64,000 nucleotides of DNA from Candidatus Omnitrophota bacterium (GCA_041651035.1 JBAZKC010000001.1:579244-643243), one strand, 5' to 3'; shown: positions 42,001 through 63,000, counted from the stretch's first letter. Made by a program: numbers and translations. The notes: generated from the sequence alone by a model not told the origin.

Positions 42001-45000
42001 TTCCGCAGAGCGAACTCTCTAAACTGGTGCATACGCAGCCTGACCGCGGAGAGCATCTTATCCAGAGTGGTAATGCGTATGTGTTAGTAAAAGACTACCA
42101 AGGTAAAAGAATAGAGGTAAACGGTATTATCTTTGACGACATAAACGGCAATCCATTTTCGCATATAGGTATGCTGAAAGATATTACTAATCTGCGAAGC
42201 GGGTTAAACATAAATCCCAAGCTCTCCAGCGATAACGCAAGCAAGGATTTTAACAGGTTAATCAAGGCGGCAGCCAAGTTAGGGATGAAGGTATATGTTG
42301 ATTTTATCCCCTGGCTTTCTCCGGATGCGGTGAATGGGAGAAATTATAAATTGACCTTCTATCGTGAGCTCGAATCCGATGCTTGGGAAAAGGCAAAGCG
42401 CGAACCAGCTTTCATCACTCAATTACTGCGAGATAATAGAACATGGGCGGCAGTAAAGATTACAGAACGTGGCACTGAGCGTCTAATCTTAGTAAAATTA
42501 TGCCCATGGAATAGCGCTGACCAGGTCATGCTGAACTTCTGGCTGCCTGAAGTTCAGAATTATTTGGCTGCGGCAGCTATAAAGTTATACAAAAGAGGGG
42601 TGCGCGGCCTGCGTGCAGACCTGGCAGCATACATGCTCAATAGGAATATGCAGGATTTTGCCGGCTTAAGAGGGGATGCCGATTTAAGCGGTGAACCTTG
42701 GTCCAAGATTATCAGCAGGGTGAAGAAAAAGACCGACAATAATGACGCGATGACCTGGATCATGGAAGCTTATGAAAGAGACTATGATCATCCCGGAGTT
42801 CCCCTCCTGCTGAAACTAGGCCCTTCGGTGAAGGTATATTACAAAAACCTGCATGACGATTTCGTAAGATCCAATCCGGAATGGTTTTTTGGTTCATTGA
42901 AATTCGCATGGGAAAAGCGCGGCTATTACGTTATTTTTCCCACTATGTACGACGATATGTCTCTGGCCGGCCTGAGCGGTTCACGCGAGGGATTCCTGAT
43001 GATACTTTTGGCCATGGCTTATCTTGGCGTACCGGTGATGATTGATCTGCGCGAGTGGTCAGGGCATCATGGGCAGATGATTACTATGCCCGGAGGGATA
43101 AATCAAGATACGCGCAAAGTCTGGCATCCGGTAGTCACAGAGAAAGAGCTGGAAATGCGCAAAGATTTCGGTGGATTCCAAAAGGCGTTGGCGGAAGGTC
43201 CGGTTAACAGGTTGATTAAAAACTTCTTTAATACGGTGTCAGGTAGCAGCCATAAAGACGTAGCCATATATTGGCAGGCTAATAATATCCAGGTCTGTTT
43301 TAGGGGGCAAGAAAAGGCTGAGACTTTTACCGTGGATATGAATTTTAAGTCCACGCATATTCCTTGTGAATGGTCTATCAGCGTGTCGCCTCGGAGCAAT
43401 TGGATTAAAAAGCATGCGGGGGGATTAAACGAAAGATTGGAGGAATACGCGGTAAGTTTGAGCGGGCTGGAGGCTACGAGCAAGCTAGTAGAGGATGCGC
43501 GCAGGCTGATAGAGGAAGACCTAAGTTTATCCGAGGCAGCGAAAGAAGCAGAAAGAGAAAAATTAGAGGGAAGATTGGAGCTGTGCGGCATAGAGAACCT
43601 AATCTTATCCGAGGCGGATAAGATGGAGATTAAAACCCTCATAAATATAATTTATGATACGCTACATGCGAATAGCGCCGAGATTGAGAAAATAGCGAAA
43701 GGCGCGATACCCCCGGCAGAAGAAACAGCAATCTTAGAAAGAATACAGAAGAATATCCTGCAGTGTTTTACGAGAATAGAAGAATATATGCAGCCCGGCA
43801 AATTTAACAAAGAGGTGAGCGAAAAGGTGGCTGGGATTGTCGATGAGGCAAAGAGAGGGGTTCTTTTAGACTTAGAAAAATTAAAGACCAGCTCTCCGCT
43901 AAAAATTTTAGGCGTTCGTGAAAACGCTTACAAATCAAGGGACACCCTCCCGATTAGCAAAATGGGTGTCCCTGCTCTGGGTGGAAGGGTGTCCCTAGTT
44001 AAGGCATCTTCGCCGGTAGAGAGCGCAGATTATCGTCAGGCCGAGCCAGAAACTTCCGGGGATGCAGAGAAAGGAAATTTTTGCCATGAGCTGGAAACAA
44101 TTAGACTTTTTGGAAGTTATCGCGATGTCTCTCTGGATCAGAATTTACCGGATAGCCCAAAGGGTCCGGATGATCGTACACTCATGGATTTACTCCCTTG
44201 CGAGGGGATAGATCCTTTTACGCTCGCAGCTCTTAGGGAATATTTTCGCAAAATGCTGGCTGACCTTGCCTGGCTTGCAGATATAAAGAAAAAATACTAC
44301 AAACAAAAACCAGTAACTCTCAGCAATAGGCAATTACTTATTTTCACTCTCCTATGCAGGGCAATTATGGAGCCTTTTCTTGTGGGCCTCATAAAGAAAG
44401 AAGACATCTTGCGTAGTTGCCAGGTGCGAGAGGAGAAATTTATAAATGATCTTTCAGATTTGCTGGATTTAAGTTACGAGCGGGGGGAAACATTAACAGG
44501 ATTAGAATTGAGTAAAATCTTCGGGATCCCTTCTGGAAGGAGTGGAATCTTGATGATAGAAAGCGTGGCAAGAAGAAAAGTAGGGTTGTTTGCTTTGTTA
44601 AAGCCCGGTTTATTCTCTTCTGACTTTTTTAGCGAGATGCCTTCCAATTCTTCGACTCCGTCCAGGATTGGCCCTAAGCGAGGCCAAAGGCCGGGTCGAA
44701 CAACGGTCAGCTCGCCTTTACAGGACTCCCTGCCGGACTCCACACAGTCGCCGCTATATTTGCTCAATGCTCCTAAGCAGCCGGCAGGCTTATTGCCCGG
44801 CATTCCTAATCCGCCGGCAGGTTTACTATCCGATGTGCCCGAGGTTTTCAGGCTGGAATTTGATAAGCAGGATTTTTACCTCTTTATGCGTGAGGGCGAC
44901 CACCGCAGGGTCTATGAAAAATTAGGGGCGCACTTAGCACGGCAGAAAGGTGAGAGGGGGATATATTTTGCGGTCTGGGCGCCTAATGCCCAGGATGTAT

Positions 45001-48000
45001 CGGTAATCGGAGACTTCAATGGCTGGGATGATAATAGGCATCACATGGATAATAATGGCGGCATCTGGCACATCTTTATCCCGGGTGTGGATAAGGGCTG
45101 CCGCTACAAATACTGGATCAGAGGTCAGGACGGCTGGGGCCGGATGAAGATTGACCCCTATGCTTTCTTTAGCGAATTTCCCACCCAGGCTAATCTACAC
45201 ACTACCGCTTCTATTGTCTGGGATATTTCTTCCTTTGAATGGCAGGATCAAGATTGGATGTCTAAGAGAAAAGAAATACAGGCATTAGATAAGCCTATCT
45301 CGGTCTATGAATTGCATTTGGGATCCTGGCGCCGCCATAAGGACGGCAGCTGGCTGAATTACCGCGAACTTGCCCACGAATTAGTTGCCTACCTAAGAAA
45401 TGAGGCTGAAGACTCCGGCCTGGAATACACCCACGTAGAATTAATGCCGGTAGCAGAGCATTTTTTCTATGGTTCCTGGGGTTACCAAAACAGCAACTAC
45501 TTTGCGCCTACTTCCCGTTACGGCCGGCCAGAGGATTTTATGTATTTTGTAGACTACCTGCACCGGCATAATATTGGTGTAATTATTGACTGGGTCCCGG
45601 CGCACTTCGCCAAACTTAATGAGACAAAAGAATATGATCAGGGCTTGACTTATTTTGACGGCAGCGAACTCTATTCACACGATAATCCGCAGGAGGGCGA
45701 CCATCCGGACTGGGGAACCAGGATATTCAATTACGGCCGCCACGAAGTCAGAAGTTTTCTTATCAGCAACGCCTTGTTCTGGCTGGATAAATACCATATT
45801 GACGGCTTACGGGTGGACGCGGTTGCCTCTATGATTTACCGCGACTATAGCCGTAAACCTGGCGAATGGGTAACCAACGAAGACGGCGACAACGAAAACT
45901 GGAAGGCCATAAGGTTTCTCCAGATGTTTAACATTGCCGCATACGCAGAATATCCGGGAATTCTGACTATTGCCGAAGAGTCGACAAATTGGCCGGGGGT
46001 TTCCCGGTCTATTGACATAGAAAGGCTTGAGAAAGAGAAAAGGCTTGAGAAAGAGGGAAGGCTTGAGAAAAAGGATCGGGTAAAAGAGTTGGGTTTTTCC
46101 ATGAAGTGGGGCATGGGCTGGATGCATGATGTCCTGAAATTCTTTGCCCGAAATCCGGAGCATCGCAGCTATCACCTTGGCGAGGTTACTTTCTATCTCT
46201 TGTATGCATTTACGGAGAATTTTATCCTGGCATTATCCCACGATGAGGTAGTACACGGCAAGGGTTCTATAAAGAATAAGATGCCGCCGAAAGATGCCTG
46301 GCAGCAGTTTGCTAACATTAGACTTTTATTAGCACTGCAGTATCTCATGCCAGGCAAAAAACATGATTTTATGGGCATGGAATTTGCCGCGCATAAAGAA
46401 TGGAACCATGATGATCAGCTAGACTGGTACCTTTTGCAGTACCCGTTGCATTCTTCTCTAAAGCATTTTGTCCGCGAGTTGAATATATTTTACCGCGATA
46501 ACCCAGCATTGTATGAGATTGATTTTGATTCCCGCGGTTTTGACTGGATTGACTGCAGCGATGGAGATAATACTATAATCAGCTTTATCCGTCAGGGCTA
46601 TTGTGCCGAACAGCCCTTAGTGGGAGTTTTTAACTTTACTCCGGTGGTACGGCGCAACTACCGTATCGGCTTGCCTTTTGGAGAAACATGGAAAGAGGTT
46701 TTTAACAGTGATTCCGAAGTTTATGGCGGCAGCAACGTAGGTAATCCGGGAGTAATTCAGGCAGAAAATATCCCCATGCATCAGCGTGGCCACTCAGTAT
46801 ACCTTACCTTGCCTCCTTTGGGCATGACGGTATTAAAAAGAAGATCCAGTGAAGTGGACGCCTCCAGCTCGCCGATGCTTGGCAAGATCAGAGAAGAAGG
46901 AATCGCCGAAATGATAACAGCAGGCTTTAAGCGGCCATCTAAGTCTGGGATTAGCAGGGTAATAAGCGCGAGGGTCGTTAAGCAGTATACTTTACCTGAC
47001 AGAAAGCCCCGCCCGATTGAGCAGCTGGCCGGAGAAATAGTCCACATTGCTGCCTTGGTGGCTCCATATATCCTGCGTTTTATAGCAAATAACGGAATAG
47101 ATTTTAACCAACTTAGAGCTAATGAAGAAGCATCTATCAGAATGAGCCACCTCCTTATCAATTTCTTCCGGAATAACCCGTCATTCAATGGGGAGATTGT
47201 AATAGGAGAAAAGCAGAGATATGGTATCCCGGCTATCATGAGCTTAGGGAAAAAATTTGGCAGAGGTATAATAAGATTGCTTTTAGCCGCTGATGTTCTT
47301 GAACAATCCGGGAATCTGGTTGATACTAATGCGGGGTCTTTAACTTCGGTAATAATGATAATGGAAAAGAGAAGATTATCTGTTTGTCCGGATGACCCCT
47401 ATATGGATAAAATGGTTATCGGCAGGACCGAGCAAGAGATAGAGTTAAGATTGGATATGAGCGAAAATGAATTGATAGAAACTTTATGCTCCGGATACGG
47501 AGTTACTAAGGATAATCTGGCCTTTGCGATTTTATTTAGAGACAGGCACAAGCCCCTGATTGATAAATTGATAGAATTGGGGATTAAGGTTGAGACCAAG
47601 GATTTTATAAAAATGAGAGAAAAAGTCAAGCAGGATCGCGTTTATAAAAACGGAAACCTTTATCTTTTAGACAACGGCGATCTAATTCCGTTCATCGGCT
47701 TGCTTACCGGAAAGATACATTGTTTGTTGGGAGTAGGTAAGCCTGCCGAAGGAGAAATCCTCAGTAATTTAATAGGTATGTTAGGCGGCAAGATGTACCG
47801 TAGAGTAGCCAGCTATGAATCGTTAACAGGGGATAAATCAATTGACTTATTTTCTGACCGGCAGCGGTTTAGTCCTATAGAAAAGGCGTTTTTAAGAAGC
47901 GCGAACCTCATTGACCCGCAATTATCCCTCAGACAGGGGCAGCAATCATGGGACAGGGTTTGTAGAGAGTCAAGGCCTAAAGACGGAGTTTTTGCCGCGG

Positions 48001-51000
48001 CCTTTGTAAAAGATTGTATCTGGGATGAGCATATCAAAGGGGTAAGGATTGACAAAAAGACCGGAGAAATTAAAGTAATGGTGTTTTTAGCCGGCGCCTC
48101 AGGTGAAGCAAAGCTTGTTGAGATAACCTATGAATCCGAAATAGGGTTGTTACAAAATAAGATTAATAAGAGTGTCAAGAACGATACCCGGCAAGCCGAA
48201 CTCTTCTTTCGTCTTTCTCTGCAGTATCTCCGCTTTGGTTTGTTTGGACATGCTATCAGAGCCATTAAACAAGCGCGTAAATTTCCAGTTACCGAAGAAC
48301 TAAAAAATAAATATCAGTCTGTCTTATATGAAATCCAAGCGAACCTAAGCCTGGTCAGAACAGAAAAGAAATTTGTCATAACCAAAGCAATCCGCCATCT
48401 CAATTATACGCTAAAATTTAATCCTGTTAATCCTTTTGCCCGGAATCTGCTGCGTAAGATATATAATTCTATGGCTGATTATCAGCGCAGAGAAGGAGAT
48501 GCTACCGGTGAGGCAAAATACTTTGTTTTAGCGCGGAGAAATTACCGCAAGGCTTTAAAATATTTTCCTCCTAAAAAAGACAGATCTGAGCGAGAGAGTT
48601 TTGAATACGGCTTAGTGGAATTGCAGGTTAGGGAGATGTGGATTAAACAGAATCCGGAGGATACCCAGGGATATTTTTATAATTTAGGCCAGATCTATAT
48701 GGAAGAAGCGCAGCTATATCGGGATTCAGGCTTTAATCACAGGGCAATCACTTATTTTGGTAAAGCCATGGAGGCCTGGAGACAGGCAGGCGGATTTTCC
48801 GGGATGTTTCCTTTGACCACCAAGCTTGAGATGGCACGGTATTATGAGCATGAACTCAGATATGAAGAGGCGATGCAGGCATATCTTGATTTGTTAATCT
48901 TTGAGAGGACCTTGAGATTATATGCATCGGATCTGAAGGATGAAGAATTTGATGGAGAAACTGAAGAATCCTTCGGGAAGGGGCTTTATTTATTATATCA
49001 TAAGAAGGCCCTTGCTAAATATATTATCTGCCTGCTTTTACTGCATAATATCGAGCTAAAGGGCAAAGAGGCGGCGGAAGAGAGCTTAAATCAACTTATA
49101 AATACAAAATTGTTATTCGTCTCTAAAGGTGCCATCTGGTTTAAAAAAGACAAGAAGGCAAGAAAAAGAAAGTTGTATGATTTAAACGATGAGGCGTATC
49201 TGGCGCCGGAAAAAATCGCCTCTTTTGTTAAGGCATTTTCTCTGGATAAAATCGGCAAGAAAAGCAGCGCCAGCTCGCCGGTGGATGCCGGGAAGGCTGT
49301 TAGTGGACGTAGTATTATGATTGAGCGTTATAAAGATATCGCAAAAGAAGGGTGGGGTAAATCTGGGGTGGGAACCTTTTCCGCCCTCTATCCTAATTTT
49401 AGGAAATCTATAGCTGAAAGGATTGGCGAGGGCAAAAAGATTCTTTCTATTGGTTGCGGCTTTTGCGAACTGGAAGAGGTTTTAAGTAAAAAAAATATCG
49501 TTATAGGCTTGGATATTAGTTTTGAGATGATTAACGCAGCCCGCCTTAAGATGATTAATACAACTTGCATTGGGATGCTTAAGGCCGGCCGCTTTGAGAT
49601 GTTTAAGGCTGGCCGCGATGAATTTAGTTTACCGAATTTGTTCGTAGGCGAAGGGGGACATCTTCCTTTTCAGAACGGCAGTTTCAACGCAGTTGTATTT
49701 TCTGAGTCCCTAGGCCATATGATGTCTATGGATTCGGCCCTGGAAGAGGCAAACTATGTATTGGTGGCGGGAGGGGAGTTATTTATTACTACCTATCCAC
49801 CTACATCCAAAAATGGATTGTTTGAGCTGAGCAATAATTATTTTAGATTATACAAGGAGGGGTTGGTTGAGATTATCAAATCAAAAGGATTTACGGTCAG
49901 AGATGAAGATGTAAGAGAAGAATTTTGGTTTGCTCCAAAGGGCTCAACAATCGTTCTTAACGGAAGCACTATTTTTATCAGAGCGACCAAGAATATTGTA
50001 TCACCAAATATAAATATGGCATGCACGGTGACGGTTACAAAGCGTTTAGCAGATGGAATAGCAAGGTCCAGCTCACCGCTGAATATAAATTCGGAACCGC
50101 TGATTTACGTTCAGCTCCACTGGTACATATGGAAATTGAAAAACTCTGCTTCTTACATCGTCCGCGCGAATGCAGCTAAAATCTTAGGTAACATCGGCTT
50201 TGGTCACGAGAGAGTAATTAAGTTATTGATCAGAGCTTTATCCGATTTTTCTTCTGAAGTCCGCGCTAAGGCAGCCAGGGCCTTAGGCAGGCTTAGGGCT
50301 GCGGAAGCAGCAGATTTTCTAATTAACGCTTTGGATGATCTATTCTGGGTGGTCCGTTTAGCCGCGGTCATAGCCTTAGGCAGGTTAGGCGAGACAAAAG
50401 CAATCGAGCGCCTGCTTGAGCTTTTAGCCAATGATTCAGACCATAGAGTTTTTAAAGCTACGGACATAGTTTTAAAGAGATTAGGCGCTAGTGAAGAGCA
50501 GCTACAAGCCGGATACCTTAAAGCCTTAACCAGCCCATATCCTGATATCCGCGCGGAAGCAGCTAAAGCCTTAGGTAATCTTGGTGCTGCGGAAGCAAAA
50601 TGCCCCCTAAAAGATATTTTAGCTCATGATCCAAGCAGACGTGTCCGTAAAACTGCAGGTTTAGCCTTATTTAAAATAATCATTGTAACTAGCAGCTCGC
50701 CCGTAATTTTTAGCGAAGAAGCATACCAGGAGGCGCTTACCCGTGTTCCTCGGTTTGCGTTTGATCCGGGCAACCCCACCCTAATATTTTCATTTCTCAA
50801 GAATCCGGTTTCCGTAAAAGATGTTCGGCGCCTATTTAATTTACTGCGCATGCCAGGCCGTTTAAGAAAAGACAAGTTGCTTTTCAGAAAAACCATTATT
50901 CAGCGCCTATTTAATTTCCTGCGCGTGCCAGGTTTATTTAAAAGAATTATTTTCAAGAAGTCCGATGCAATGCTAATTTTTGTTAATAAACATTCAGATA

Positions 51001-54000
51001 TTCTACGAGTAGAAACAACTCCTTATCATTGGGGATGGGTGCCCAGAATAATAGCCATATGTTCCAGAGGGCATATTATTGAGAATACTCTTACGGGAAT
51101 GGGAAAGAAAGTGCGTAAACATGATATTATTACGTATTGCATCTCAACAAATATTAAAGCAGTCCTTGATTCCGCCTTAAAATTGCTTAAGAAAGCAAGA
51201 TCTGTAATTTTGGTAACTCATCCTTTGCATGTGTTAAGAGTAAGGGCTGCAGCCAAAAGCTGTTATAAGCGTATACATTTTATAAGTTACGATATCCCTT
51301 CTTCATTTTATCTTGATGTTTCTAAGTTGATTGGTGACCAAACACAATTACAGGATTTGTTAAGAGAGGCCGTAGAAGAACTGGAGAAGATAAAGATAGG
51401 CATAGAGAATGGGAGTATAGATGCACGACTGATAAATCCTCGTGAATTCTCTTATTTGAGTAGAATTTTTGTTCCGGTATCTTCCAGCAGCCCGATTAGC
51501 GCTGATGCTGCAGCCAAAACTCCTTCTAGTTCGCCAATTATGGCTATTCTTCAAGTACAGTGGCATATATGTAGATTGAGGAGTGATAAATTTTATGTCC
51601 GCGCACGCGCAGTCATCGCTCTAAGTAAGCTTGGCGGCAGGAGAGCGCTACGGCATTTGATCAAAGCCTTAAATGACCAATCTTGGGTCGTTCGTAAGTT
51701 CGCGTGCGCAGCTTTAGGCATATTTGGGAATCAGAGAGCGATTGGGCCTTTACAAAATGCTTTAACTGACCCAAACCAGAATGTCAGCTTAGCCGCAACT
51801 AAGGCTTTGGCAAGAATACTCTATGCCACTCTAGGTATGGCAAACGCAAGGGATTTTGTAAACCATGGAGGCATAAGGGGCTCGCCTTCCAGTCCGCAGG
51901 GGATTATCCATCGTATTATCCGTAAAATAGCCCGCATATTTTTCATCAGTCTTTTTCTCGCTTTTATCATACCTATAATGTCAGCTACATCACTCGCCCA
52001 AGAAAAAGGTTTCGCAACTCCCTACGATTACGTTTGGGAAGGTCTAACTCTCTGCGAAAAACGAAATCCTGATTATGAAACAGCGATTGGAATGTTTACC
52101 AGGGCTATTGAACTTGATCCAGCCTGTCTTGACGCATATGAGGCCCGTGGATATATCTACTTCAATCGCGGAGAATATAAAGAGGCGATAGTTGATTTTA
52201 ACAAGGTTATAGAATTTAATCCAAGGTATACTGTAGTGTATAACGACCGTGGGCGCGCTTTTTATTATCTTGAAAGATATAAAGAAGCAGCGGCTGATTT
52301 TACTACGGTTATTAAACTTAAACCAAACTCTGTTAATGCATATATCGGCCGCGGGGCCGCCTGTTATTACCTTGGTAAATATGAAGAAGCGAGAGCTGAT
52401 TTTTGTGAGGCGTTTAAACTCAACCCAAAAAATACTAATGTGCGCGAATGGATGGAGCTTGTTAATAAAAAAATTGGTGTAAAGAAACAAAGTCTTCCTT
52501 TTGACCGTTCGACTCCATCTAAAATACCTCCGTTTTGCTCTTCCAGCCCTATCGACTCCGGCTTTATAAAGGAATACGAGAACAATATAAAAGACAGGAT
52601 TATGGCAGATTTGCCTCGTTCTCTCGCTGAACATTTTGGCATAAGCGAAGAGAAGATTTCTTTAGCCATAGATGGTGTTGGAGTCAAATATTTAGGAGAA
52701 GGGATAGAAGAACGCGTAGTTTGTTACGTGGTTATTAAAGAAAGGCCATATTTCATAAAAACCGCAAGGCCCGGAGAACAGGAAGTACCCGGCTCCAATA
52801 CCCTAAAAGCCCTATACCTGCCTAATCCAAATACTGAATTCGTGATGGGCTCAGATTACAACTATTACGTGTCTGTTTATATGGGCAATGTGAACTTTAC
52901 TACAAGCCCAGCCGACAATCTCAAAGAAAGAACATTCAGGGAATCTTATGCCTATCAACTTGGCAAAATGGCGGCGGCAGCCTTTATAATAGGCTTAGCA
53001 GATAGAAACCTTGCTAACTCTGTAGCCTTTATGCGCGGCAATATAATCTGTGAGATTGTCAATGTTGATTTGACCACATCTTTTACTTATCTAGATAAGG
53101 AGCCGCTTGATGCCCTTACTGAACAGATAGCTTTATTAAAAGAGGCTATCGTAACCTTAAAAGAAAACGGTCTTGGCGAATATGTCAAGACCTTTAAGGC
53201 AGACTATCTGGCTGGATTTAAAGAACAGATATATGAAACCTGGCTCTTGTTAAATTCAGATAAGATAGGTATTGAGTTATCCCTATCAAAAGCAACTGGC
53301 AGGTGGCGGGAAGTTTTGACTCGTATTAAGACTGCTAAAGGACAGTTGCATTTATTAAGCTGGCAGATATCCGTTGCTGTTGTTTTTTCTGACCCAGCCG
53401 CATCCAGCCCATTGAATCAAACATCCAAGGATAAAATCGGCGCGGTGGTTAAAACAGTCGGCGATATTGTCAATTTCTATTATGCTAAATTTGTTGTTTG
53501 TTTGGTGGGCATAGACCTGGCAATTCAATTTTTAATTATGCGCCTGTGGGATAAACCAATACATACCGAGTGGTATTATGAGGATATCCCTACTGGAATA
53601 TTTACTGAAATTAATGGTTTTGATTTAGGCTTCCTTCCATGCTTCCATGCTTCTAATACGTTGGATATATTCTACAAACTAATAGTTTCTCTGCCGTTTA
53701 CTTTCTGTATGCTTTATTTTGCATACAACAAGATCAATGCTTATAAATCTACAAGATTAAGGCTCAGTTTATCCGCCGCCGGAATTTTAAGCAGCGCAAT
53801 TTCGCTTATAACCGGTAGTGGCATATTGGGTATATTTTATCTGCCGTTTACTTTCTGCATGTTTTATTTTATCAATGCTTCTAAATCTATAAAATTGGGG
53901 CTTAGTTTAGCAACCGCCGGCATTTTAAGCAGTGCAATTTCGCTTATAACCGGTGGTGGAAAATTGGATTACTTGGTAGTGCCTGATCGCTATGGCGTGG

Positions 54001-57000
54001 CTTCCTGGGCAACAAATCTTGCCGATATATTGTGGTATTCAGGACTGTGCATTACCGCTTTATCTTTAGCCGTATCTTTTATTACATTCATATTAAAATA
54101 TACAATAGAGAAGGTTACTCCGGTAGATGTTACTGCTGTTGGTTCTAGTAGAGAGGGATCTAAAAAAGGCGCTTCTCCGGCTGGCCCTGTTTCCTCCAGC
54201 CCGCTGGGCCGCTCTCTCAGAGACACATTCGGCACGGTGGTGAGAAATCTATCCGAGAATTCCTCCAGCTTGGTCCATTTAAAAGACATTGCCACAAAAG
54301 GATTAATTCGTGCAGGTCCGGCACGGATACTCAAGAATGTAATTGCCTTAGCGGCATTAGTAATTATCGGGCTGTTAACTCTATTCGCTGCTCCAACCTT
54401 AGTTAATAATGCCTCGGCAGTTGAATATAAAGATCAGGCTGAAGTCAGAGAAGTATCTCCTTCCCAGATAGAAATCCCCATACGTATTATCTACTCTAAT
54501 CACAGAACAGAAGCAGACTTTAACACATTGGTTCCTGCTTTGGACGAGGCGTTTAAGGCTGCCAAAGATAAGAACCAGAAAATCCTGTTGTTCCTGGAGG
54601 AGTGTGTTTTTCCAAGCGAGTCAGCAAGAGAGGACTTCAAAAAGATATGCCCTGGCTGGGATATTGATAAAGTTATTAATGATCCTGTAGATCGGGAGCA
54701 CTTTGAAGAAGCTTACTTATCGTATTTAAAAGATGAACAAGAATACGTCCGAACACTGTGCAGTTCCACAGATTGGCTCAAGGATTATAAAGAAAATACA
54801 GACTTTGCCACAGCTCTATTACGTTATATTACAGAGAAAATAAACAGCGGAGAATATGAAATTCAAATTTATCTTGAAACTCCGCCATTTGAATATATTT
54901 TGCATGTTCTACAATATTCAACATTAGAGTACTCTGCTGATGTCAAGCTTAGGGATGAGGATTTATTTAAGGATATAAAACAAATATTAGTAACTTCTTC
55001 CGACAACAATAGTGTCATTATTATCAGAGGGGAGCTTCATACCTATCTGGGTAAATTGTTTGAGGAAAACGGATATAAAGTTAATTATTCAAACGGAGAA
55101 GGTTACGAAAATCTTGTTAAATGTTTTGAAATTATTGGAAAAATGCAGAAAGATCATGATATATCTGCGCCATCTGTCGCCTATACTCAAGAGATTAAGA
55201 CCTGCGAAGGCCATGATGCGGATTATTGGATGATGCAACTTACAGATGAGCTGCCGTTTACTCGTAAAGATGCTGCCAGAGCCTTAGGTGAAATAGGCGA
55301 TCCAAGGGCAGTGCCGGCCTTGATAGAAGTTCTTAAAAAAGACAATAACTGTTTTATAGTATCCGCAGCTATCAAAGCCCTTGGTAAAATAGGCGACCCG
55401 AGCGCAGTTCCAGTATTGATTGAAGCCTTGGAAAACAGTGATAGCGGTATAAGGAAATCCGCTGCCAGGGCCCTTAAAAAACTTGGTTGGGAACCTCAAA
55501 ATCAAGAAGAACAAATAAAATACTTTTTTTCCATAAGGGATTGGGATGCTTTGGTTAAAATTGGTAAACCAGCAATAGAATTATTAGAAAACAAGGGCTT
55601 GAGCGACGGTGACTTTAAAATAAGCATTCCAGCTCTTGAGACTCTTAGAAAAATCGACCCTGATTGGCGGCCGACAGGAGATTTTTCTTTGGCTCCCCAA
55701 GAGAAAGACGCAAGCGATTATATTTTTATAGTAGTCGTGGGAGCTGGCGTATTTATAATCATTATAGGTTTCTCTGTGCTGGCCTGGATGCGCCTATCAG
55801 AGTTGAAAGCTGCTGAAAAAGAAAAGCGCGGAGAACAACAAGAAACCAGCTTTATCGGCGGCACTACCTTTATTAATATTGAAGAGCGTAAACGTGCTTC
55901 ATCTCCGCTAAGCAGTAAACAGCAGTACCAGCAGTGGACCGATGAACTTGAAGAGGCAAAATCAAGCTGGAAACTATTTGAGATTGTCAGAAATATCGGA
56001 GAAAGCCTTCTTGATAACTCCGAGCTTCTGGAGCCGGTTATTAGTGTCTTTCTTTGGGCAAAGTTAAATATGGCTCAAGCACAGTCAAATATGATTGGGG
56101 AGAGGCTTGCCGGATACATTAAGCAACTGTTTTATCATAAATCCGATTTTAAGCCAACTTTCAAGCAACTAAGTTTTCTTATTAGTATCTTTTCTCAATT
56201 AAATTTAAGCGATGATACCCGAAAAAGCATTGGCGAAGCCATTGAGCAGGTTTTTATCAATAATCCCGATATTTTAACCCCGGTTTTCGTTTGGGTGAGC
56301 TGGAAAAACTCGGCTAGGGTGCGGAATGGGGCTGCTTATTTAATTAAACAGGCTATTAACAGAAATCCTGAGAGCCTTATGCCTGTATTTATTTTAGGGC
56401 TAAGTGATCCCGATGTCAGGAAAAGTCCATACCTTCGAGATATTGAGAAAAGAATACTAAGGGAAGGCAAGGGCAGAGGCGCCTCATCTCCGGTAATCTG
56501 TGTTTGGCAGCAACTAAGAGGCCGGATTAAGGCTCTTGAACAGGCAAGCTCGAACTGGGAACAGTATCAGATTGCTATAGAGATTGAGGATGACCTTATT
56601 GATAATGTCAATCTTCTAACCCCAATTCTTAATGTTATTCTCCGGACAAAATCGAATATTATCCAAGAATGGCTTGTTGAGGTTATTGAACAAACGTTTC
56701 GCGACAAAGCCGAATTTAAAGTGGCCTCCAAGCAGCTAGGGATCATTATTAATATATTTATCAAAGCAGGTTCAGATGATATTCAGGAGAGGCTTGCCGG
56801 TACTATTGAACGGATTCTTTGCAACAATCCAGACCTTAGGTTAACCCAAAAGCAGTTTGATAATCTGGTTGCCGTATTTGTTCAGACAGGTTCAGAGAGC
56901 ATACGACAAAAACTTGCCGGTGTTTTTGACCAGGCGCTTAGCAATGAGCCTGAAATTATACCAATTATCGTTCAAGATAGGCTTATTGGTGTTTTTGCAG

Positions 57001-60000
57001 ATAAGCCCTGCAATAATACTGATCTTAAACCGACCTTTGAGCAGCTGGATATCTTCGTTACTACCCTTATCCAAACACAGTCACACAATATCCGGCACAG
57101 GATTGGTTGTATTATTAAGCATATACTTCGCGGCGATCCCGATATTTTAATCCCGGGTCTTGCCGCTTTTAAACAGGCATATCCATATAAGTGTGTTGAT
57201 GCCCAAGAGGAATTTATTATTGCTGTTGGAAGAGCTATTAGCAGCACCCCTAAACTTTTAAATCTCGCGCTTGTTGCTATTGTCGAGACAGACTCGGATA
57301 AGGTTAGATATTGGCTTGCCCGTGCCATTAAAAATGCCCATAATTATAATACTGATTTTAAACTAACTTATGAACAGGTAAATATTCTTCGTATGGCTCT
57401 TGACCGGGCAGGCTCGGATATAGCCAGAGTTGAAATTGCCGATACTATTGGAAAAGCCTTTAGCAGAAACCCCGGGTTTAAGCCAAATCTAGAACTGTTA
57501 GATACTTTTGTTACTGTTATTAGCCGTGTAGATTTAAATGCTGCCGAGAGGGTTACGTATGCTTTTTTAAGGCTCCTGGTTAATAAGCCGGTTCTTTTAA
57601 CTCCGCTTATTGCCGTCCATACCCAGACAGGCTTAGCAGATAATGTTTGGAAGAATCTTACTTATTTTCTTATGCATGTTCTTATCTGTGACCCAAATCT
57701 CTTAGGTCCAATCCATATTATTCTTTCTCGGCCTGGCTCGGATGAGGCCTTGTATTGGTTTTCCGGAATTATTGAACAGGCTATTCTTAATGAGCCCGAT
57801 ATCTTAATCTCCATCCTTATTATGCTTACTTGGGCAGATTCGTATAGTTTACGGGAGGGGTTTACTTACGCCATTGAACAGGCACTTGGCAGAAGCTCCC
57901 AAAGGCTTATGCCCGTATTTATATCGGGGTTGGATGATCCTGAAGTCAGGATAGGCCAAGACACCAAAGAAAGGATATTTACGTATTTAGCATCTAAAGG
58001 TATCTATCCTCAAGCAGAAAAAGGCGAAGCAATGAACACTTCGTCTCCGCTGGAGCGTTCCAACTCACCTGTAACAATCCTCTCTAATTTACGGACTTTA
58101 TGGATCCGCCTTCAAATTGAATGGCATGGATCAAGGCTATGGTATAGCTCAAGACTAAAGAGAAGCTACAATCCTTATATCTGCATACGCGCAGTCAGAG
58201 CTTTAGACAAACTTGGAGATCCGGGAGCAGTTGAATATCTGGGTATGGCTTTAATTAGTCCAAATGGGGAGGTCTGTATAGGCGCAGCCGAAGCATTAGG
58301 TAATATTGGCGCCCCAGAAGCAATCCCGTTCTTGATCGATGCTTTATTACGTGATGATTCAGATTCTGATGTCTGCGAAGCGTTAGCCAAAGCCTTACTA
58401 AAAATCAACCTTACCTCTAAAAAAGCTGTTATAAGAGCTTTTAAAAAGTTAAGGCAGAAGGATATTGAAGTTTTAATAATAATTCTTACCCGAAACGGAG
58501 TAATGCCGCTAGCAGAGTTATTCTTAAATTCCGGCCGCCGCGAATTAGAAGAAGTGGCAAGAGAGTGGGCACCAAAACACAGATACGTTATTAAAGAAGA
58601 TCCGGTTACCAGACATTGGTCATTGAAACCTTCGGCCTCAAGCCCGCTAACCAGTGATTCAAAGGGAGTAGAAGCCCTTGGAAAAGAAATCAGTCCTATA
58701 ATTTCCAGCTCGCCGGTGGGTTATGGCCCTATAAGGAGAGAGCGGATAGAAAGCTATGGGGAATTTATCCGTTCAATGGGGCTCACAGCGGAAGATATCC
58801 AGAGTCTTCCTCCTAATTTAAGGCAGGTATTCTATAAGCTGAAAGATATAATTGCGGAGGCCCGCGCTATTATTTATTCTATAGAAGATATAGAAGATAT
58901 TAAAGTTGAAATTGAGCAAGAAAAAGGCATGCCCAAGAATCTCACAGATAAAATAAATGAAATTAGCAAGAGATTGAACTTGGGTGGAGTTAGATATCAT
59001 ACAAAGAAAGAGATAAAAGCTAAATTAGCCGAAGTAAGTAATGCTTTACCCGGCCAAACTTCAATTATTAAGGAGTTGTTGAGGTTGATTAGCCTCTTAG
59101 GGGAGAGATTGAGCAAATTAGAGCGGCAAATAGTTTTATTTAACCTGCGTACTGCTCAGGGCTTGGATAAGCACAGAGCCGATATTTCAAAAGGGCTCCC
59201 AGTTTCTTATTTTTCTCCCCAAGAAACCGCCGTTATATCTGCTAACCGAGAATTTCGTCTATGGAAGGAACAGGATAGAGAGTCACAATTACCCGAAAGG
59301 ATAATCAAATATCTTCAGGTATGTTTGAGTTTTCGTGTCAGAGCCCCTCCTGCGTTGAGAGATATAAATGCTATCCTTGACGATCCCCAAGTAACAAAAC
59401 TGATTGATATGCTTCTTGGTTTTGACCCCGAGTTTGATGCGCTGTCCATCCTCGAGAGATCCGCAACAGTTATTAAGATTGCCAAAGAGAACAAAATCAG
59501 CGACGATGAAAGATATATCTTTCATCTTATCAGCTTTACTCCTAGAGAATATTACTTTAGGCAAAATGTCCCTCTTCAGGTAAGAGAATATATTGCTGGG
59601 CGTATTGAGAAGGATTATGGGATAGCATTACTTAATCCTGAGACTAGGCTGGAGATTGAATTTTCCGGGGATGGAACAGAAGAAGGAGTATTTTTAAAAG
59701 CATGCTCTCTTGATGAAATAACAACTAGTGAAAGAGGAGTACCATTTTATTCGATACCCAATAAGAGGCAATTGGCAAAATGGTTTAAAGATACCTTTGG
59801 GGAATTAAAGTCAATCAAAGATAATAAAGAATACCGGGAAGCTCTAGCAATTTATAATAATTATCGTAGACATAGGATCCTTCAAGGAAGAATATATGAA
59901 CTCAAAAAACAGATTTATCGAATTACGTATAAAACCTTATCTGGAAAGACTGAATCCGTAAATTTCATTTTCTATAAAGATACTAAAACCGGTGTATTTT

Positions 60001-63000
60001 GTTCCAGCAGTTCCAGTAATTCTGCTTCTTCGCCAATAGCCTCGCCGCGCATAGCACAGCTGTTCCCAGGGTCAATCAAAGACGGCCACCAAATAGTTTT
60101 GACCAGAGAACAATTTGTGCGATGGCTGTTATGTGAGCCAAGCGGTATTTCTTATAAACTGAAGGCAGAATGGGGTAAAGCCATAGAAGAGTTTTCGTTA
60201 TTTTTTGCTGATGATTATACCCGTGACCACTGCGCCAGGGTTTTTGCTTATGCTTGGCAGATAATTGAAGAACTCCGCCGTCAGGTAAATAGAAAGAGAG
60301 AAAACGGAATAATAAGTCCTGGCAGAATAAATATAGACGTTAATTCATTGTTAATTGCTGCCCTTCTCCATGATATAGGAAAATTACAAATCCCGACAGA
60401 CATACTATGCAAGCCAAGCCGTTTGAGTGACGAAGAATTCAAGATTATACAGAGGCATCCCATCATTGGTTCGCAGATGCTTAGTTTCCTTGGGGAGATG
60501 GTTGCCAGAATGGTAAAAGAGCACCATGAAAATTATGATGGCAGCGGTTACTATGGCTTAAGATATGAAGAAAAATGCCTGGGTTCTTCAATTATCAGGG
60601 TCGCGGATACACTTGATGCCATGTTAAATGAAAGGCCCTATCAAAAATCCCATCTTTTAAGAGATGCCATCAGTGAAATTATAAATTACAGCGGCACCCG
60701 GTTTAATCCTGCGGTAGTAAAAATGCTCTCCCACCTTTACGAAACAGGTAGGCTTTTTCATTTAGTAATAACAGATGGAAACGCCAAAACGCTCTCCGTG
60801 GCTGGCCAAGACAAAAATCCCGCAGTAAGCGGCCGGGTTCACTTTGAACGGTTGATTGCTGAACTTGAAGGTGCGCAATCAGCTTGGAATAAGCAGTTAA
60901 CTATTATAGATATCGAGCAAGTCCTTATTAATAACCCTAATATATTGGTTTTGGCTCTTATCGCCTTTGGTTATGCAAAGGCATATAGTATACAGGATGG
61001 GCTTATTAATTCCATAGAGCAGTCTATTAAGCGTGCCCCAGGCAGGTTAATACCCGCATTCATCTCAGGATTAAATAATCCCTATCTTAGAAGAAAACAA
61101 GAAATCAAGGCAAGGATTCTTAATTACCTGTTAGCTAGCTCTATCTACCCCCATCGTCATTTACCCGGTTGCAATCAGCCTGAATGGGCAGCTATTCTCG
61201 CCAGTATACCGGAAGACCTATCCATGCCGTTGCTTACAGCGGATAATAATAAAGCCTATTTAGGCATCCTGCTTGCTGAAGACGATAAGGATGCCTTTAA
61301 GAAAGCCGCGTTTATAAAACTACAGGCCTACAAGAATCATATCAGAAAAACACTAGGTAAGGAATTAGGAGAAAGCCTGCCAGGGCAAGGGTCTTTATAC
61401 AGCGGCAGGTTTAGTTTGCCTTGGAAAGACTTTGTCATAGATATGAATGACCGTGCTCAAGAAATAAGCACCTCATCTCCGGTAACGATACCGCTTAATA
61501 CCGGATCAAGCCCGTTGATAGTAGCGCCAATAGAGCATCATCGGCAGGCGGCGGCCTTAATCCAGCAATACGCGCCAAAAAGAAAAGTTCCGGTGTTAAT
61601 ATTTGATTATCATTATGACGGAGGTTGGTTTTTGCATGAGGCGATAGACCCTAATCCAAATGATTTTAACTGGATAGACTTCATAAAAAGCAGGGTTGGG
61701 CAAATATATCTCTTCAGGCCATCCTGGGCAAAAGCAGAAGATTTACGCGGTTATCTAGATAGCGATGTCAAAGTGTTATATGATCCAGAAGGATTGGACT
61801 TACGCGGCCAGGAAGTAATTATTACCGTTGAGTATGATTATTTCTCGGTGAAGCTGCTTATTGATGGCACCCCCAATATTAAGAACAGGCCGGTTCCCGC
61901 CGAAATAAAAAGCAGGGCAGATCAGATAATGAGGGTCGTGAAGGAGAAAGAGCTTCGGCCATACCTATTTATTCCCTGCGAGGGGCTCGAGTATATTTAT
62001 AAGAAGGACGCTTCGGAAATTACCGAGAGCTTGTTCAGTGCTTTTTACCGAAATTTTCCTACTGCCTCTTCGCCTTGCGGCTCCAACTCGCCGGTATTTT
62101 CTGGCGTCGCTTCTTTAACCGTCGGCCAGTTGCTTAAACCTCAGGGATGTATTGCCGCGAAAGATAATATGCGTATACCGGTTTCCATGGTGCGTTTACC
62201 TATAGTGGAAGTCGGCGCATTAGATAGAGCAACAAAAGAGAAATTAGCCGTAAGTCTCCAGCGTTGGCTTGATTACAAAGGCAGGTATCCCGCGGTACAC
62301 ATTCCAGACGTATGCTTATTCATTGCTTTTCTAAAAGGAGAGCAGAAAGAAGGTGAAGAGATATTCCGGGCACTCTTGGAAAAAGAATCGCAGTTGTATT
62401 GCGCAATATCTTATCGTAATTCCCAATTGGAGACAGAAGGCTGGGTCCACATTAATATAAGTGACCGCAGCCGGATGAGTACCACAGTAATTAGGCCGGC
62501 ACTTATGGAGATAGCTCCATGGAACAGAGGTGATACTGCCGCAACTCCTTATTTTAGCGGAGTAGGCACGCAATTAAGAACTTTTGGTATCAGACTATTA
62601 CTTGAAGGTATGGAAGGCCATCGTGATCCATTTATCTACGGATGTATTCAAACCCTGGGTTTCCGCAGCGAAAAGGAAGATGTGTTTTCAGAGGGTGTTG
62701 ATCAGGGATATATTGAGGAATACTTTGGGGGCGCAAAATATACCGAACAAGAAGGCATAGATCAATATGGTTGTCTGGAAGAATGCCTTTGCCGTTTGCC
62801 GGTGACTCCGCTCAGGACTGATGATGAGCGAAGTCAAGCCAGCAGCAGCTCGCCGGTGACAGATTTTACCCGCAGTAAAGATTTTAAGACTGCACGTGTA
62901 TTAGATAGGATTAAGAATGAATTGGTTGATCTTGATGTCAGGCTCCATAGCAGCGAAACAGGCAATTTTGAGGCCCTGCGGCAGGAGTTGCGGACGTGGC

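What the first reader, a model, noticed from the sequence alone, without database searches (positions are those of the whole stretch)
50070..58420. The same [SSSP - Trp-helix - PBS-lyase HEAT x3] cassette recurs four times
Four cassettes share one layout:
- Cassette 1 (50,070-50,680): RSSSPLNI...LHWYIWKL...VRANAAKILGNIG.
- Cassette 2 (51,490-51,840): SSSPIMAILQVQWHICRL...VRARAVIALSKLG.
- Cassette 3 (55,230-55,500): DYWMMQL...RKDAARALGEIGDPRAVPALIEVL.
- Cassette 4 (58,040-58,420): TSSPLERSNSPVTIL...LWIRLQIEWH...IRAVRALDKLGDPGAVEYL.
Repeated reuse of a motif-delimited cassette supports the idea that the gene grew by duplicating or inserting punctuated modules.
Basis: seen in the sequence. Interest (0 to 1): 0.55.

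Follow-up and report, generated by a model that had tools for sequence, protein, structure and literature searches.

The report
Four unrelated-subtype HEAT domains in giant gene
The four "cassettes" are real but ordinary HEAT-repeat scaffold domains scattered through a giant (>21,000-residue) Omnitrophota protein. Their shared look is the standard layout of this domain family, not evidence that one cassette was copied four times.

Summary
The whole 64-kb window is one stop-free ORF. It is a multi-enzyme giant protein of the Omnitrophota type, punctuated 45 times by [AST]SSP[LVI].

The layout holds only partly:
- c1 has six repeats, not three.
- c3 has no SSP in front. It is the C-terminal part of a larger module bounded by transmembrane helices.
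- The "Trp helix" is not a separate element. It is helix A of the first repeat, the family's N-terminal cap. It aligns in register with the alphaRep N-cap and with the extreme N-termini of free-standing HEAT proteins.

The cassettes are 31-39% identical to each other (33-51 bits), with no meaningful DNA similarity. Each matches outside proteins as well or better:
- c1 to P0141: 82 bits.
- c2 to P0228: 60 bits.
- c3 to Omnitrophota HEAT giants: 101 bits.

A tree gives no supported cassette clade. Recent duplication is not supported; ancient duplication of c1/c2/c4 cannot be excluded.

c1, c2 and c4 do look like complete small HEAT proteins set between SSP junctions. The junction motif is the more interesting feature, because it is conserved at orthologous module boundaries in other Omnitrophota.

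The parts
3..63998 (+). Single stop-free reading frame (21,332 aa, open at both ends): a fragment of a giant multi-enzyme gene.
   Evidence: this is the only stop-free stretch of at least 300 aa in any of the six frames. Pfam map.
50067..50078 (+). SSSP junction in front of cassette 1 (aa 16689-16692).
50097..50150 (+). c1 N-cap helix PLIYVQLHWYIWKLKNSA, which is helix A of HEAT unit 1.
50070..50693 (+). Cassette 1: a complete SSP-to-SSP module with six HEAT_2 units and an 'LGASxEQxxxGYLKAL' connector. Its best match is the outside protein P0141 (82 bits).
51525..51536 (+). SSSP junction in front of cassette 2. A second SSSP lies at nt 51483-51494.
51528..51887 (+). Cassette 2: an SSP-to-SSP module with cap helix PIMAILQVQWHICR plus three HEAT units. 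It is alphaRep-like.
   Evidence: (pLDDT 85).
54312..54392 (+). TM helix opening the module that holds cassette 3, with positive charges on its N side.
55215..55667 (+). Cassette 3: cap DADYWMMQL, three HEAT units, a GWEPQ...DWDALVKIGKPA connector, then a fourth unit. There is no SSP in front. It is the sub-type found in other Omnitrophota HEAT giants.
55722..55790 (+). TM helix closing the cassette 3 module, with positive charges on its C side.
58038..58049 (+). TSSP junction in front of cassette 4.
58041..58637 (+). Cassette 4: an SSP-to-SSP module. The cap helix LWIRLQIEWHGSRLWYSSRL contains a WHGSRL/WYSSRL doublet. Three HEAT units run to about nt 58397, followed by an 80-aa C-terminal extension.
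18804..19049 (+). Weak fifth HEAT-like stretch (about two units) at the C-terminal end of module aa 6079-6349. It ends exactly at the next SSP.
   Evidence: 20.6 bits with the cassette HMM. (HEAT_2 23.8 bits, below the 27.7 cut-off).

Best explanation
The four cassettes are four separate, anciently diverged domains of one very common family: the HEAT_2 / PBS-lyase HEAT-like repeat, the natural family on which the designed alphaRep proteins are based. They sit in a giant multi-enzyme membrane-threaded protein of an Omnitrophota bacterium.

Each is a short alpha-solenoid of 3-6 helix-turn-helix units. The 'Trp helix' is helix A of the first unit. It acts as the N-terminal cap, where an aromatic pair (WY, WH, WH, YW) takes the place of the Pro-Leu of internal repeats and covers the exposed core. 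The shared layout is therefore the normal anatomy of a complete domain of this family, not the signature of a copied cassette.

The domains fall into at least three sub-types:
- c1 is a six-unit array with an 'LGASxEQxxxGYLKAL' connector, as in P0141.
- c2 and c4 are minimal three-unit arrays with a W[HY]xx[KR]L cap, as in P0228 and P0126.
- c3 is the TM-bounded 'GWxPQ...WxALVxIGxPA' type that fills other Omnitrophota HEAT giants.

Inferred function: protein-protein interaction or spacer scaffolds between enzyme modules. From TM parity, c1, c2 and c4 lie on the cytoplasmic side and c3 on the outer side of the membrane.

c1, c2 and c4 each occupy a whole SSP-to-SSP interval. That is, they are whole-protein-sized modules joined into the polypeptide at the conserved junction motif.
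For: Shown:
- Pfam HEAT_2, HEAT_PBS and HEAT are above their cut-offs in all four.
- The AF2 model of c2 (pLDDT 85, pTM 0.73) has six helices, i.e. three units, and the first helix starts at the Pro of SSSP.
- Foldseek top hits are alphaRep structures 4jw3, 3ltj and 3ltm (40-46% identity, rmsd about 0.9 A over 90 residues), then CpcE/F 5n3u and deoxyhypusine hydroxylase 4d4z.
- phmmer aligns c2 'QVQWHICRLRSDKFYVRARA' in register with the alphaRep N-cap 'KVEMYIKNLQDDSYYVRRAA'.
- The same cap lies at the extreme N-terminus of free-standing HEAT proteins: P0228 (MFETLKVWWYIRRLRADVYSVRRAA), P0239 and P0212. It lies just after a TM helix in P0126 and P0141.
- Outside proteins match each cassette as well as or better than its siblings.
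- There is no meaningful DNA similarity between cassettes, and their GC3 does not stand out from the ORF average.
- The NJ tree is unresolved, with at most 32% bootstrap.
- Host context: the closest homologues of the GT5 module are Omnitrophota fragments (49-59% identity), and the related loci are all stop-free Omnitrophota ORFs.
- Literature: HEAT_2 is the most frequent domain in Omnitrophota giants (10.1101/2023.11.21.568195). Repeated Pfams with dissolved nucleotide similarity are the rule, and 'internal HEAT scaffolding' is described (10.64898/2026.06.07.730766).

Inferred:
- The topology, from Kyte-Doolittle hydropathy plus the positive-inside rule.
- The scaffold function, from general knowledge of HEAT repeats.
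Against: - c1, c2 and c4 share Q..W[HY]..[KR]L, which none of 270 outside HEAT proteins has in full. For the 14-residue cap alone, c1 and c4 have c2 as their best partner. A distant common origin inside the gene lineage therefore remains possible.
- Consensus-like outside sequences score high against any family member, so bit-score comparisons are biased against fast-evolving sister copies.
- No binding partner or function was tested.
- The topology is a hydropathy estimate on a truncated ORF.
Confidence: 0.7

Rival explanations
1. Ancient intragenic duplication. One SSP-bounded HEAT module with a W cap was duplicated early in the history of this giant gene, giving c1, c2 and c4. These then diverged to about 35% identity and changed repeat number. 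c3 was acquired separately.
For: - The motif Q..W[HY]..[KR]L is unique to these three.
- They align in register from the SSP through the cap into the repeats.
- Cap-only scores put c2 nearest to c1 and c4.
- All three are whole SSP-to-SSP modules on the same inferred side of the membrane.
- Genuine intragenic duplications exist elsewhere in the ORF, at 60% and 33-44% identity.
Against: - c2's cap and body are closer to P0228 and P0126 (41 and 34 for the cap; 60 and 58 bits overall) than to c1 or c4 (30 and 29; 44 and 43 bits).
- c1 is closest to P0141, including a specific connector (82 bits).
- The tree gives no support.
- Repeat numbers differ: 6, 3 and 3 plus an extension.
Confidence: 0.2
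2. The same motif-delimited cassette [SSSP - Trp helix - HEAT x3] was reused four times by fairly direct duplication or insertion, so the four copies are each other's closest relatives.
For: - The layouts are superficially identical and the quoted peptides are correct.
- Pairwise BLASTP E-values between cassettes range from 1e-4 to 1e-12.
Against: - c3 lacks the SSP and is 47% identical (101 bits) to a Ca. Gorgyraea atricola HEAT protein, against 23-52 bits to its siblings.
- c1 has six units.
- There is no meaningful DNA similarity.
- Outside proteins score equal or higher for every cassette.
Confidence: 0.04
3. Polyprotein reading. The [AST]SSP[LVI] junctions are processing sites. c1, c2 and c4 are released as free alphaRep-like adaptor proteins of about 120-210 aa, and the cap helix becomes their true N-terminus.
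For: - The motif occurs 45 times against about 1 expected. It uses mixed TCN and AGY serine codons, which points to selection at the protein level.
- It is conserved at both orthologous boundaries of the GT5 module in several Omnitrophota lineages whose GT5 is only 47-59% identical.
- It lies where the initiator Met of free-standing PFK and HEAT proteins would be.
- The literature suspects cleavage but knows no sites.
Against: - There is no evidence of cleavage and no matching protease specificity. The window encodes M23 and a weak A8 hit, and neither is known to cut at Ser-Ser-Pro (my own knowledge).
- Other Omnitrophota giants lack the motif: 0 in 7,194 aa (L006), 0 in 3,810 aa (L009) and 0-1 in the HEAT giants.
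- The motif could be only a linker or a helix N-cap box; the c2 helix starts at the Pro.
Confidence: 0.15

Closest known systems
HEAT_2 / PBS-lyase HEAT-like repeat domains (Pfam PF13646, PF03130). Solved relatives: the alphaRep designs 3LTJ, 3LTM and 4JW3, MTH187 (1TE4) and CpcE/F (5N3U).
   Same: - Helix-turn-helix unit of about 31 aa with the VRxxAAxALGxIG signature.
- Predicted alpha-solenoid fold.
- N-cap helix in the same register as the alphaRep cap.
- 40-46% identity to alphaRep consensus designs.
   Different: - The domains are embedded in a polypeptide of more than 21,000 aa rather than free-standing.
- The cap carries Trp (W[HY]xx[KR]L) where alphaRep has Met-Tyr.
- Nothing suggests bilin-lyase activity.
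Omnitrophota giant proteins: the 'multi-enzyme metabolic cluster' class with internal HEAT scaffolding (bioRxiv 10.64898/2026.06.07.730766) and the 'Archaeovorins' (bioRxiv 10.1101/2023.11.21.568195).
   Same: - An ORF of more than 10,000 aa.
- Sugar-metabolism modules: PFK, UDPGP, GT5 starch synthase, PGM/PMM, a GlgB-like module and FBPase.
- Also methyltransferases, HD, a weak signal-peptidase-II hit, TPR, many TM helices and repeated HEAT_2.
- The closest homologues are Omnitrophota.
- Repeated domains without nucleotide similarity, as those papers report.
   Different: - The SSP junction motif is not mentioned in either paper.
- No SecA-DEAD, C39 or dockerin domain lies inside this window, but the ORF is cut at both ends.
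- I infer that three of the four HEAT arrays are cytoplasmic, whereas the 2023 paper reports HEAT only in extracellular regions.
Omnitrophota HEAT-array giants: P0142 (MDD5436422.1, 6,021 aa), P0217 (Ca. Gorgyraea atricola MDP8230456.1, 3,534 aa) and P0265.
   Same: c3 shares their unit: a HEAT array with a GWxPQ...Y...WxALVxIGxPA connector, bounded by TM helices. Identity is 43-47% at 93-101 bits.
   Different: - Those proteins are made almost entirely of such units and contain 0-1 SSP.
- Here a single unit follows an unassigned domain of about 265 aa.

Membership tests
HEAT_2 / PBS-lyase HEAT-like repeat (alphaRep-type) | Pfam HEAT_2 / HEAT_PBS score above the gathering cut-off. | tested here: met
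   HEAT_2 scores 110, 63, 72 and 56 bits against a cut-off of 27.7. HEAT_PBS scores 69, 34, 67 and 38 bits against 20.9.
HEAT_2 / PBS-lyase HEAT-like repeat (alphaRep-type) | Tandem units of about 31 aa (helix A - turn - helix B) with the VRxxAAxALGxIG signature. | tested here: met
   c1 has 6 units, c2 has 3, c3 has 3+1 and c4 has 3.
HEAT_2 / PBS-lyase HEAT-like repeat (alphaRep-type) | Alpha-solenoid fold superposable on solved members. | tested here: met
   Tested for c2 only. The AF2 model has pLDDT 85. Foldseek gives alphaRep at rmsd 0.9 A and TM-score (target-normalised) up to 0.9.
HEAT_2 / PBS-lyase HEAT-like repeat (alphaRep-type) | N-terminal capping helix in register with the family's cap. 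| tested here: met
   for c1, c2 and c4. c3 has a shifted YW version.
HEAT_2 / PBS-lyase HEAT-like repeat (alphaRep-type) | Phycobiliprotein lyase activity (CpcE/F proper). | not testable with these tools
   Not expected in a non-photosynthetic host. Sequence similarity to 5n3u is only at fold level.
Omnitrophota giant multi-enzyme proteins | A single ORF of more than 10,000 aa. | tested here: met
   at least 21,332 aa with no stop.
Omnitrophota giant multi-enzyme proteins | Omnitrophota origin. | tested here: met
   the nearest homologues of the GT5 module and of c3 are Omnitrophota MAG proteins. The window's own genome was not found.
Omnitrophota giant multi-enzyme proteins | Many distinct Pfam domains, including a sugar-metabolism set, plus multiple TM helices. 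| tested here: met
Omnitrophota giant multi-enzyme proteins | SecA-DEAD and/or C39 peptidase domains, reported as common in full-length giants. | tested here: inconclusive
   None found in the window, but the ORF is truncated at both ends.
   only one off-register 40-bp match at 80% identity.
   c3 has no SSP, c1 has six units and c4 has an extra 80 aa.
   Q..W[HY]..[KR]L occurs in c1, c2 and c4 only. The core W[HY]xx[KR]L is also present in P0228 and P0126.
Polyprotein with defined processing sites | A conserved short motif at module junctions. | tested here: met
Polyprotein with defined processing sites | Demonstrated cleavage at the motif and a cognate protease. | not testable with these tools
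   Needs proteomics or N-terminomics. Only M23 and a weak A8 hit lie in the window.

The most novel reading that the evidence does not exclude
The [AST]SSP[LVI] junctions that bound c1, c2 and c4 are functional boundary signals of a bacterial polyprotein, either proteolytic processing sites or co-translational pause/fold signals. On this reading the giant ORF is a fused 'operon' of whole proteins, and the three HEAT cassettes are released, or act autonomously, as small alphaRep-like adaptors that assemble the neighbouring enzymes.
Probability: 0.15. Interest if true: 0.8.

Novelty: new member of a known kind. Interest (0 to 1): 0.3.

Why it matters
Taken alone, the finding matters little. Repeated HEAT_2 domains are already described as the commonest feature of Omnitrophota giant proteins, and the 'Trp helix' is the family's normal cap.

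Its value is as a clean test case. Three of the arrays are complete, free-standing-protein-sized domains that begin a few residues after a conserved junction motif. This supports the view that these giant genes are concatenations of whole proteins. It also gives candidate coordinates for the cleavage or boundary points that the 2023 giant-gene paper said were missing.

Tried and rejected
- Orthologue searches for c1-DUF218-c2 found nothing useful. Genome contigs gave no hit. Metagenome contigs gave only a generic 1,069-aa HEAT protein on an ordinary contig, L001. The 5.8-billion-protein search was swamped by generic HEAT proteins. The 1.84-billion-representative search matched only the HEAT part of the query.
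- The 881-aa non-repeat stretch between c2 and c3 had no hit at E <= 1e-5.
- A 4,220-aa query timed out.
- I looked for HEAT cassettes in eight other Omnitrophota giant-gene loci (about 31,000 aa) with phmmer. None turned up, so I could not test whether an SSP + W-cap cassette is general.
- The single-sequence AF2 run of c2 was useless (pLDDT 43). It was replaced by a run with a window-only alignment.
- I considered the Trp helix as part of the junction motif and rejected it. Trp is not enriched in the 30 aa after SSP motifs (P = 0.43).
- I considered SSP+4 codons as internal start sites and rejected it. By my count from the codon table, 20 of 45 are codons not known as starts.
- I considered a genetic-code artefact and rejected it, because the frame has no stop of any kind under table 11.


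Full report
CONTEXT

The whole window is one open reading frame on the + strand (nt 3-63998, 21,332 codons, open at both ends). No other frame has a stop-free stretch of even 300 codons.

Pfam finds the following along the ORF:
- Peptidase_M23, His_Phos_1, Transketolase_N, PFK and UDPGP.
- Two methyltransferases.
- Glyco_transf_5 (starch synthase) and PGM/PMM domains I-IV.
- CBM48 + alpha-amylase (GlgB-like) and FBPase_glpX.
- TPR and HD.
- Weak DUF218 and Peptidase_A8 hits.
- Four HEAT_2 arrays.

About 35 hydrophobic segments look like TM helices.

The nearest homologues of the GT5 module are partial proteins from Candidatus Omnitrophota MAGs at 49-59% identity. The eight related GTDB loci are all Omnitrophota contigs that are themselves single stop-free ORFs.

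This matches the 'multi-enzyme metabolic cluster' class of Omnitrophota giant proteins 'with internal HEAT ... scaffolding' (10.64898/2026.06.07.730766). It also matches the HEAT-rich giants of West-Roberts et al. (10.1101/2023.11.21.568195).

From aa 4479 onward the ORF is punctuated 45 times by [AST]SSP[LVI]. SSSP occurs 23 times against 0.28 expected.

THE OBSERVATION

All four regions score far above Pfam's HEAT_2 cut-off. No other part of the ORF reaches E <= 1e-4 for HEAT_2. A fifth stretch below the cut-off lies at aa 6268-6349.

The claimed common layout holds only partly.
- c1 (aa 16690-16897), c2 (17176-17295) and c4 (19347-19545) each fill an entire SSP-to-SSP interval. Each begins with a Trp-containing helix 5-25 residues after the motif.
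- Only 7.5% of the ORF lies within 30 residues after a motif, so three of four arrays starting there is unlikely by chance (about 1.6e-3).
- c3 does not follow an SSP. It is the C-terminal part of module 18065-18632, after a TM helix and an unassigned domain of about 265 aa, and a second TM helix follows it.
- c1 has six repeat units, i.e. two three-unit blocks.
- c3 has 3+1 units split by a GWEPQ...DWDALVKIGKPA connector.
- c4 has three units plus an 80-residue extension.

WHAT THE TRP HELIX IS

In the alignment of the cassettes, the Trp helix is helix A of the first HEAT unit.

An AF2 model of c2, built with a window-only alignment, reached pLDDT 85. It shows six helices, i.e. three units, and the first helix starts exactly at the Pro of SSSP. 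Its best structural matches are the designed alphaRep proteins (4jw3, 3ltj, 3ltm; 40-46% identity, rmsd about 0.9 A). CpcE/F and deoxyhypusine hydroxylase follow.

A sequence search of the PDB aligns c2 'QVQWHICRLRSDKFYVRARA' in register with the alphaRep N-cap 'KVEMYIKNLQDDSYYVRRAA'.

The same cap occurs at the extreme N-terminus of free-standing HEAT proteins from metagenomes:
- P0228: MFETLKVWWYIRRLRADVYSVRRAA.
- P0239: MGWWTDLRVRWLIRSLQ...
- P0212, from Ca. Scalindua: MWWRRRDKVERWIAKLKD...

It also occurs just after a TM helix in P0126 and P0141.

So the Trp helix is the family's N-terminal capping helix. It is not an extra element, and Trp is not generally enriched after SSP motifs (P = 0.43).

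ARE THE CASSETTES COPIES OF ONE ANOTHER?

Cassette-to-cassette BLASTP gives 31-39% identity and 33-51 bits, with several off-register HSPs typical of repeats.

Unrelated HEAT_2 proteins score the same or higher.
- Against the 120 generic hits, the top scores are 82, 62, 75 and 45 bits for c1-c4, with medians of 36-52.
- Restricted to the cap plus the first three units and compared in register:
  - c2 scores 44 to c1 and 43 to c4, but 60 to P0228 and 58 to P0126.
  - c1 scores 42-43 to P0228 and P0239.
  - c3 scores 69 to P0195.
  - c4 scores 52 to c3 and 49 to P0195.
- c1 matches P0141 at 82 bits over 168 residues. The match includes a distinctive 'LGASxEQxxxGYLKALxS' connector.
- c3 matches Omnitrophota HEAT giants at 47% identity / 101 bits (Ca. 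Gorgyraea atricola P0217) and 43% / 93 bits (P0142). The match includes the GWxPQ...WxALVxIGxPA connector.

A bootstrapped NJ tree of cap-anchored sequences is unresolved. No grouping of window cassettes exceeds 32%.

At the DNA level there is nothing beyond one off-register 40-bp match, and cassette GC3 does not stand out from the ORF average.

Two things speak for a distant link between c1, c2 and c4:
- The motif Q..W[HY]..[KR]L occurs three times in the ORF against 0.003 expected, and not in full in any of 270 outside proteins.
- In a cap-only comparison, c1 and c4 score best with c2.

Against that, the core W[HY]xx[KR]L is also in P0228 and P0126, and c2's cap is closer to those two than to c1 or c4.

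My reading is that recent duplication is excluded. Ancient duplication of c1/c2/c4 remains possible, at roughly one chance in five.

This agrees with the published finding that repeated Pfams in Omnitrophota long proteins are the rule and that their nucleotide similarity has dissolved.

HOW THE DOMAINS LIKELY WORK

As short alpha-solenoids, these domains most plausibly act as protein-binding or spacer scaffolds between enzyme modules. This is inferred from the family, not tested.

TM parity and the positive-inside rule suggest the following (inferred):
- c1 and c2 lie on the cytoplasmic side, after a SAM methyltransferase and before the N-in TM helix at aa 17309.
- c4 also lies on the cytoplasmic side, after the out-to-in TM helix at aa 18574.
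- c3 lies between an in-to-out and an out-to-in helix, i.e. outside. This matches the TM-bounded HEAT units of P0142 and P0217.

WHAT SURVIVES OF THE 'PUNCTUATED MODULE' IDEA

c1, c2 and c4 look like complete small HEAT proteins dropped between two junction motifs. Their cap helix is the N-terminus of free-standing homologues.

The same holds for the PFK module. Free-standing PFK 5xoe starts aligning at its residue 3 with the residue four positions after the Pro of SSSP-L.

The junction motif is the more notable feature.
- It uses both TCN and AGY serine codons at both Ser positions, which argues for selection at the amino-acid level. It also shows a skew towards nCC-AGC-TCG-CCG.
- It is conserved at both orthologous boundaries of the GT5 module in several Omnitrophota lineages. 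On the N side the forms are TSSPV, STSSPV, VSSPV and ASSPL. On the C side they are ASSPL, VSSPL and ASSPL. Two low-GC lineages have SSSL or SSSS instead, and two other sequences have nothing there.
- Some Omnitrophota giants lack it altogether.
- Neither giant-gene paper mentions it, and the 2023 paper states that cleavage points are unknown.

Whether the motif is a processing site, a linker or helix-cap box, or a pause signal cannot be decided here.

VERDICT

The interpretation as one cassette reused four times is not supported. The cassettes are ordinary members of a known domain family in a known kind of giant protein. Interest in this finding alone is low. The SSP junction deserves its own follow-up.

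Noticed in passing
window 3-63998 (+): The entire 64-kb window is one stop-free ORF of 21,332 codons, open at both ends. The first 4,400 or so codons have no SSP motif and almost no Pfam hit (only Peptidase_M23 at aa 13-100), but they hold two clusters of TM helices (aa 3261-3447 and 4112-4435).
   Followed up: partly
window 13437-62858 (45 sites; e.g. 50067-50081, 51525-51539, 58038-58052): The junction motif [AST]SSP[LVI] occurs 45 times against about 1 expected. Codons are skewed inside the motif: AGY at Ser1 in 30 of 45 (background 38%), TCG at Ser2 in 17 of 45 (background 8%), and CCG at Pro in 26 of 45 (background 26%). Both serine codon families still occur at both Ser positions.
   Followed up: partly
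window 27132-27227 and 28770-28808; loci L002-L007; proteins P0272-P0276: The junction motif is conserved at both orthologous boundaries of the starch-synthase (GT5) module in other Omnitrophota whose GT5 is only 47-59% identical. Low-GC lineages have SSSL or SSSS instead. P0271 and L009 have no motif there.
   Followed up: partly
window 20340-20372: The PFK module begins SSSP-L-IHRIAVLTGGG. Residue 3 of the free-standing PFK 5xoe aligns four residues after the Pro, so the motif sits where the initiator Met would be.
   Followed up: yes
window 21579-22169 and 30906-31493: This is the strongest internal duplication in the ORF, at 60% identity over 203 aa. Each copy has a signal-peptide-like hydrophobic segment (..FSFFPTSAFA/HYFKD..), a soluble domain of about 100 aa, a charged linker and a TM helix. 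By eye the soluble part looks LysM-like; I did not test that.
   Followed up: no
window 55899-56483, 56484-58040 and 60855-61172: These three segments form a paralogous family of alpha-helical repeat modules at 33-44% identity, with no Pfam hit. The first two start with SSP followed by a Trp-containing helix (..EEAKSSWKLF.. / ..EQASSNWEQY..). The middle copy is expanded by internal repeats. This is better evidence for intragenic duplication than the HEAT_2 cassettes.
   Followed up: partly
window aa 6727, 7194, 9003, 10244, 12683 and 13662 (nt 20181, 21582, 27009, 30732, 38049, 40986): An extended form of the junction, SSP[LV]G[AS][LV][LIV]xx[TS]..., recurs six times. In four of them a second SSP motif follows 15-18 residues later.
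   Followed up: no
window 18804-19049: A weak fifth HEAT-like stretch of about two units (HEAT_2 23.8 bits, below the cut-off) forms the C-terminal end of module aa 6079-6349. It ends exactly at the next SSP.
   Followed up: partly
window 58122-58157: The c4 cap helix contains a tandem six-residue doublet, WHGSRL-WYSSRL. This lengthens the turn before helix B relative to c1 and c2.
   Followed up: no
window 51888-52010 and 54195-54400: The modules that follow the SSP motifs at aa 17296 and 18065 begin with signal-peptide-like segments (RKIARIFFISLFLAFIIPIMSATSLA/QE and ARILKNVIALAALVIIGLLTLFAAPTLVNNASA/VE). They are the kind expected at the N-terminus of separate exported proteins.
   Followed up: no
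L006 (JAKLFA010000005.1, 7,194-aa ORF): This Omnitrophota giant has no [AST]SSP[LVI] motif (only 2 SSP in 7,194 aa), but 'NSAV'/'TNSA' is over-represented (8 against 0.12 expected). It may be a different junction motif in another lineage.
   Followed up: no
window 52542-53402 and 54405-55200: Two SSP- or TM-bounded modules of about 265-290 aa have no significant family match. The only hits are PI3_PI4_kinase at E = 0.17 and Colicin_immun at E = 0.11. An 881-aa query spanning this region (nt 52542-55184) found no homologue at E <= 1e-5 among 5.8 billion proteins.
   Followed up: partly
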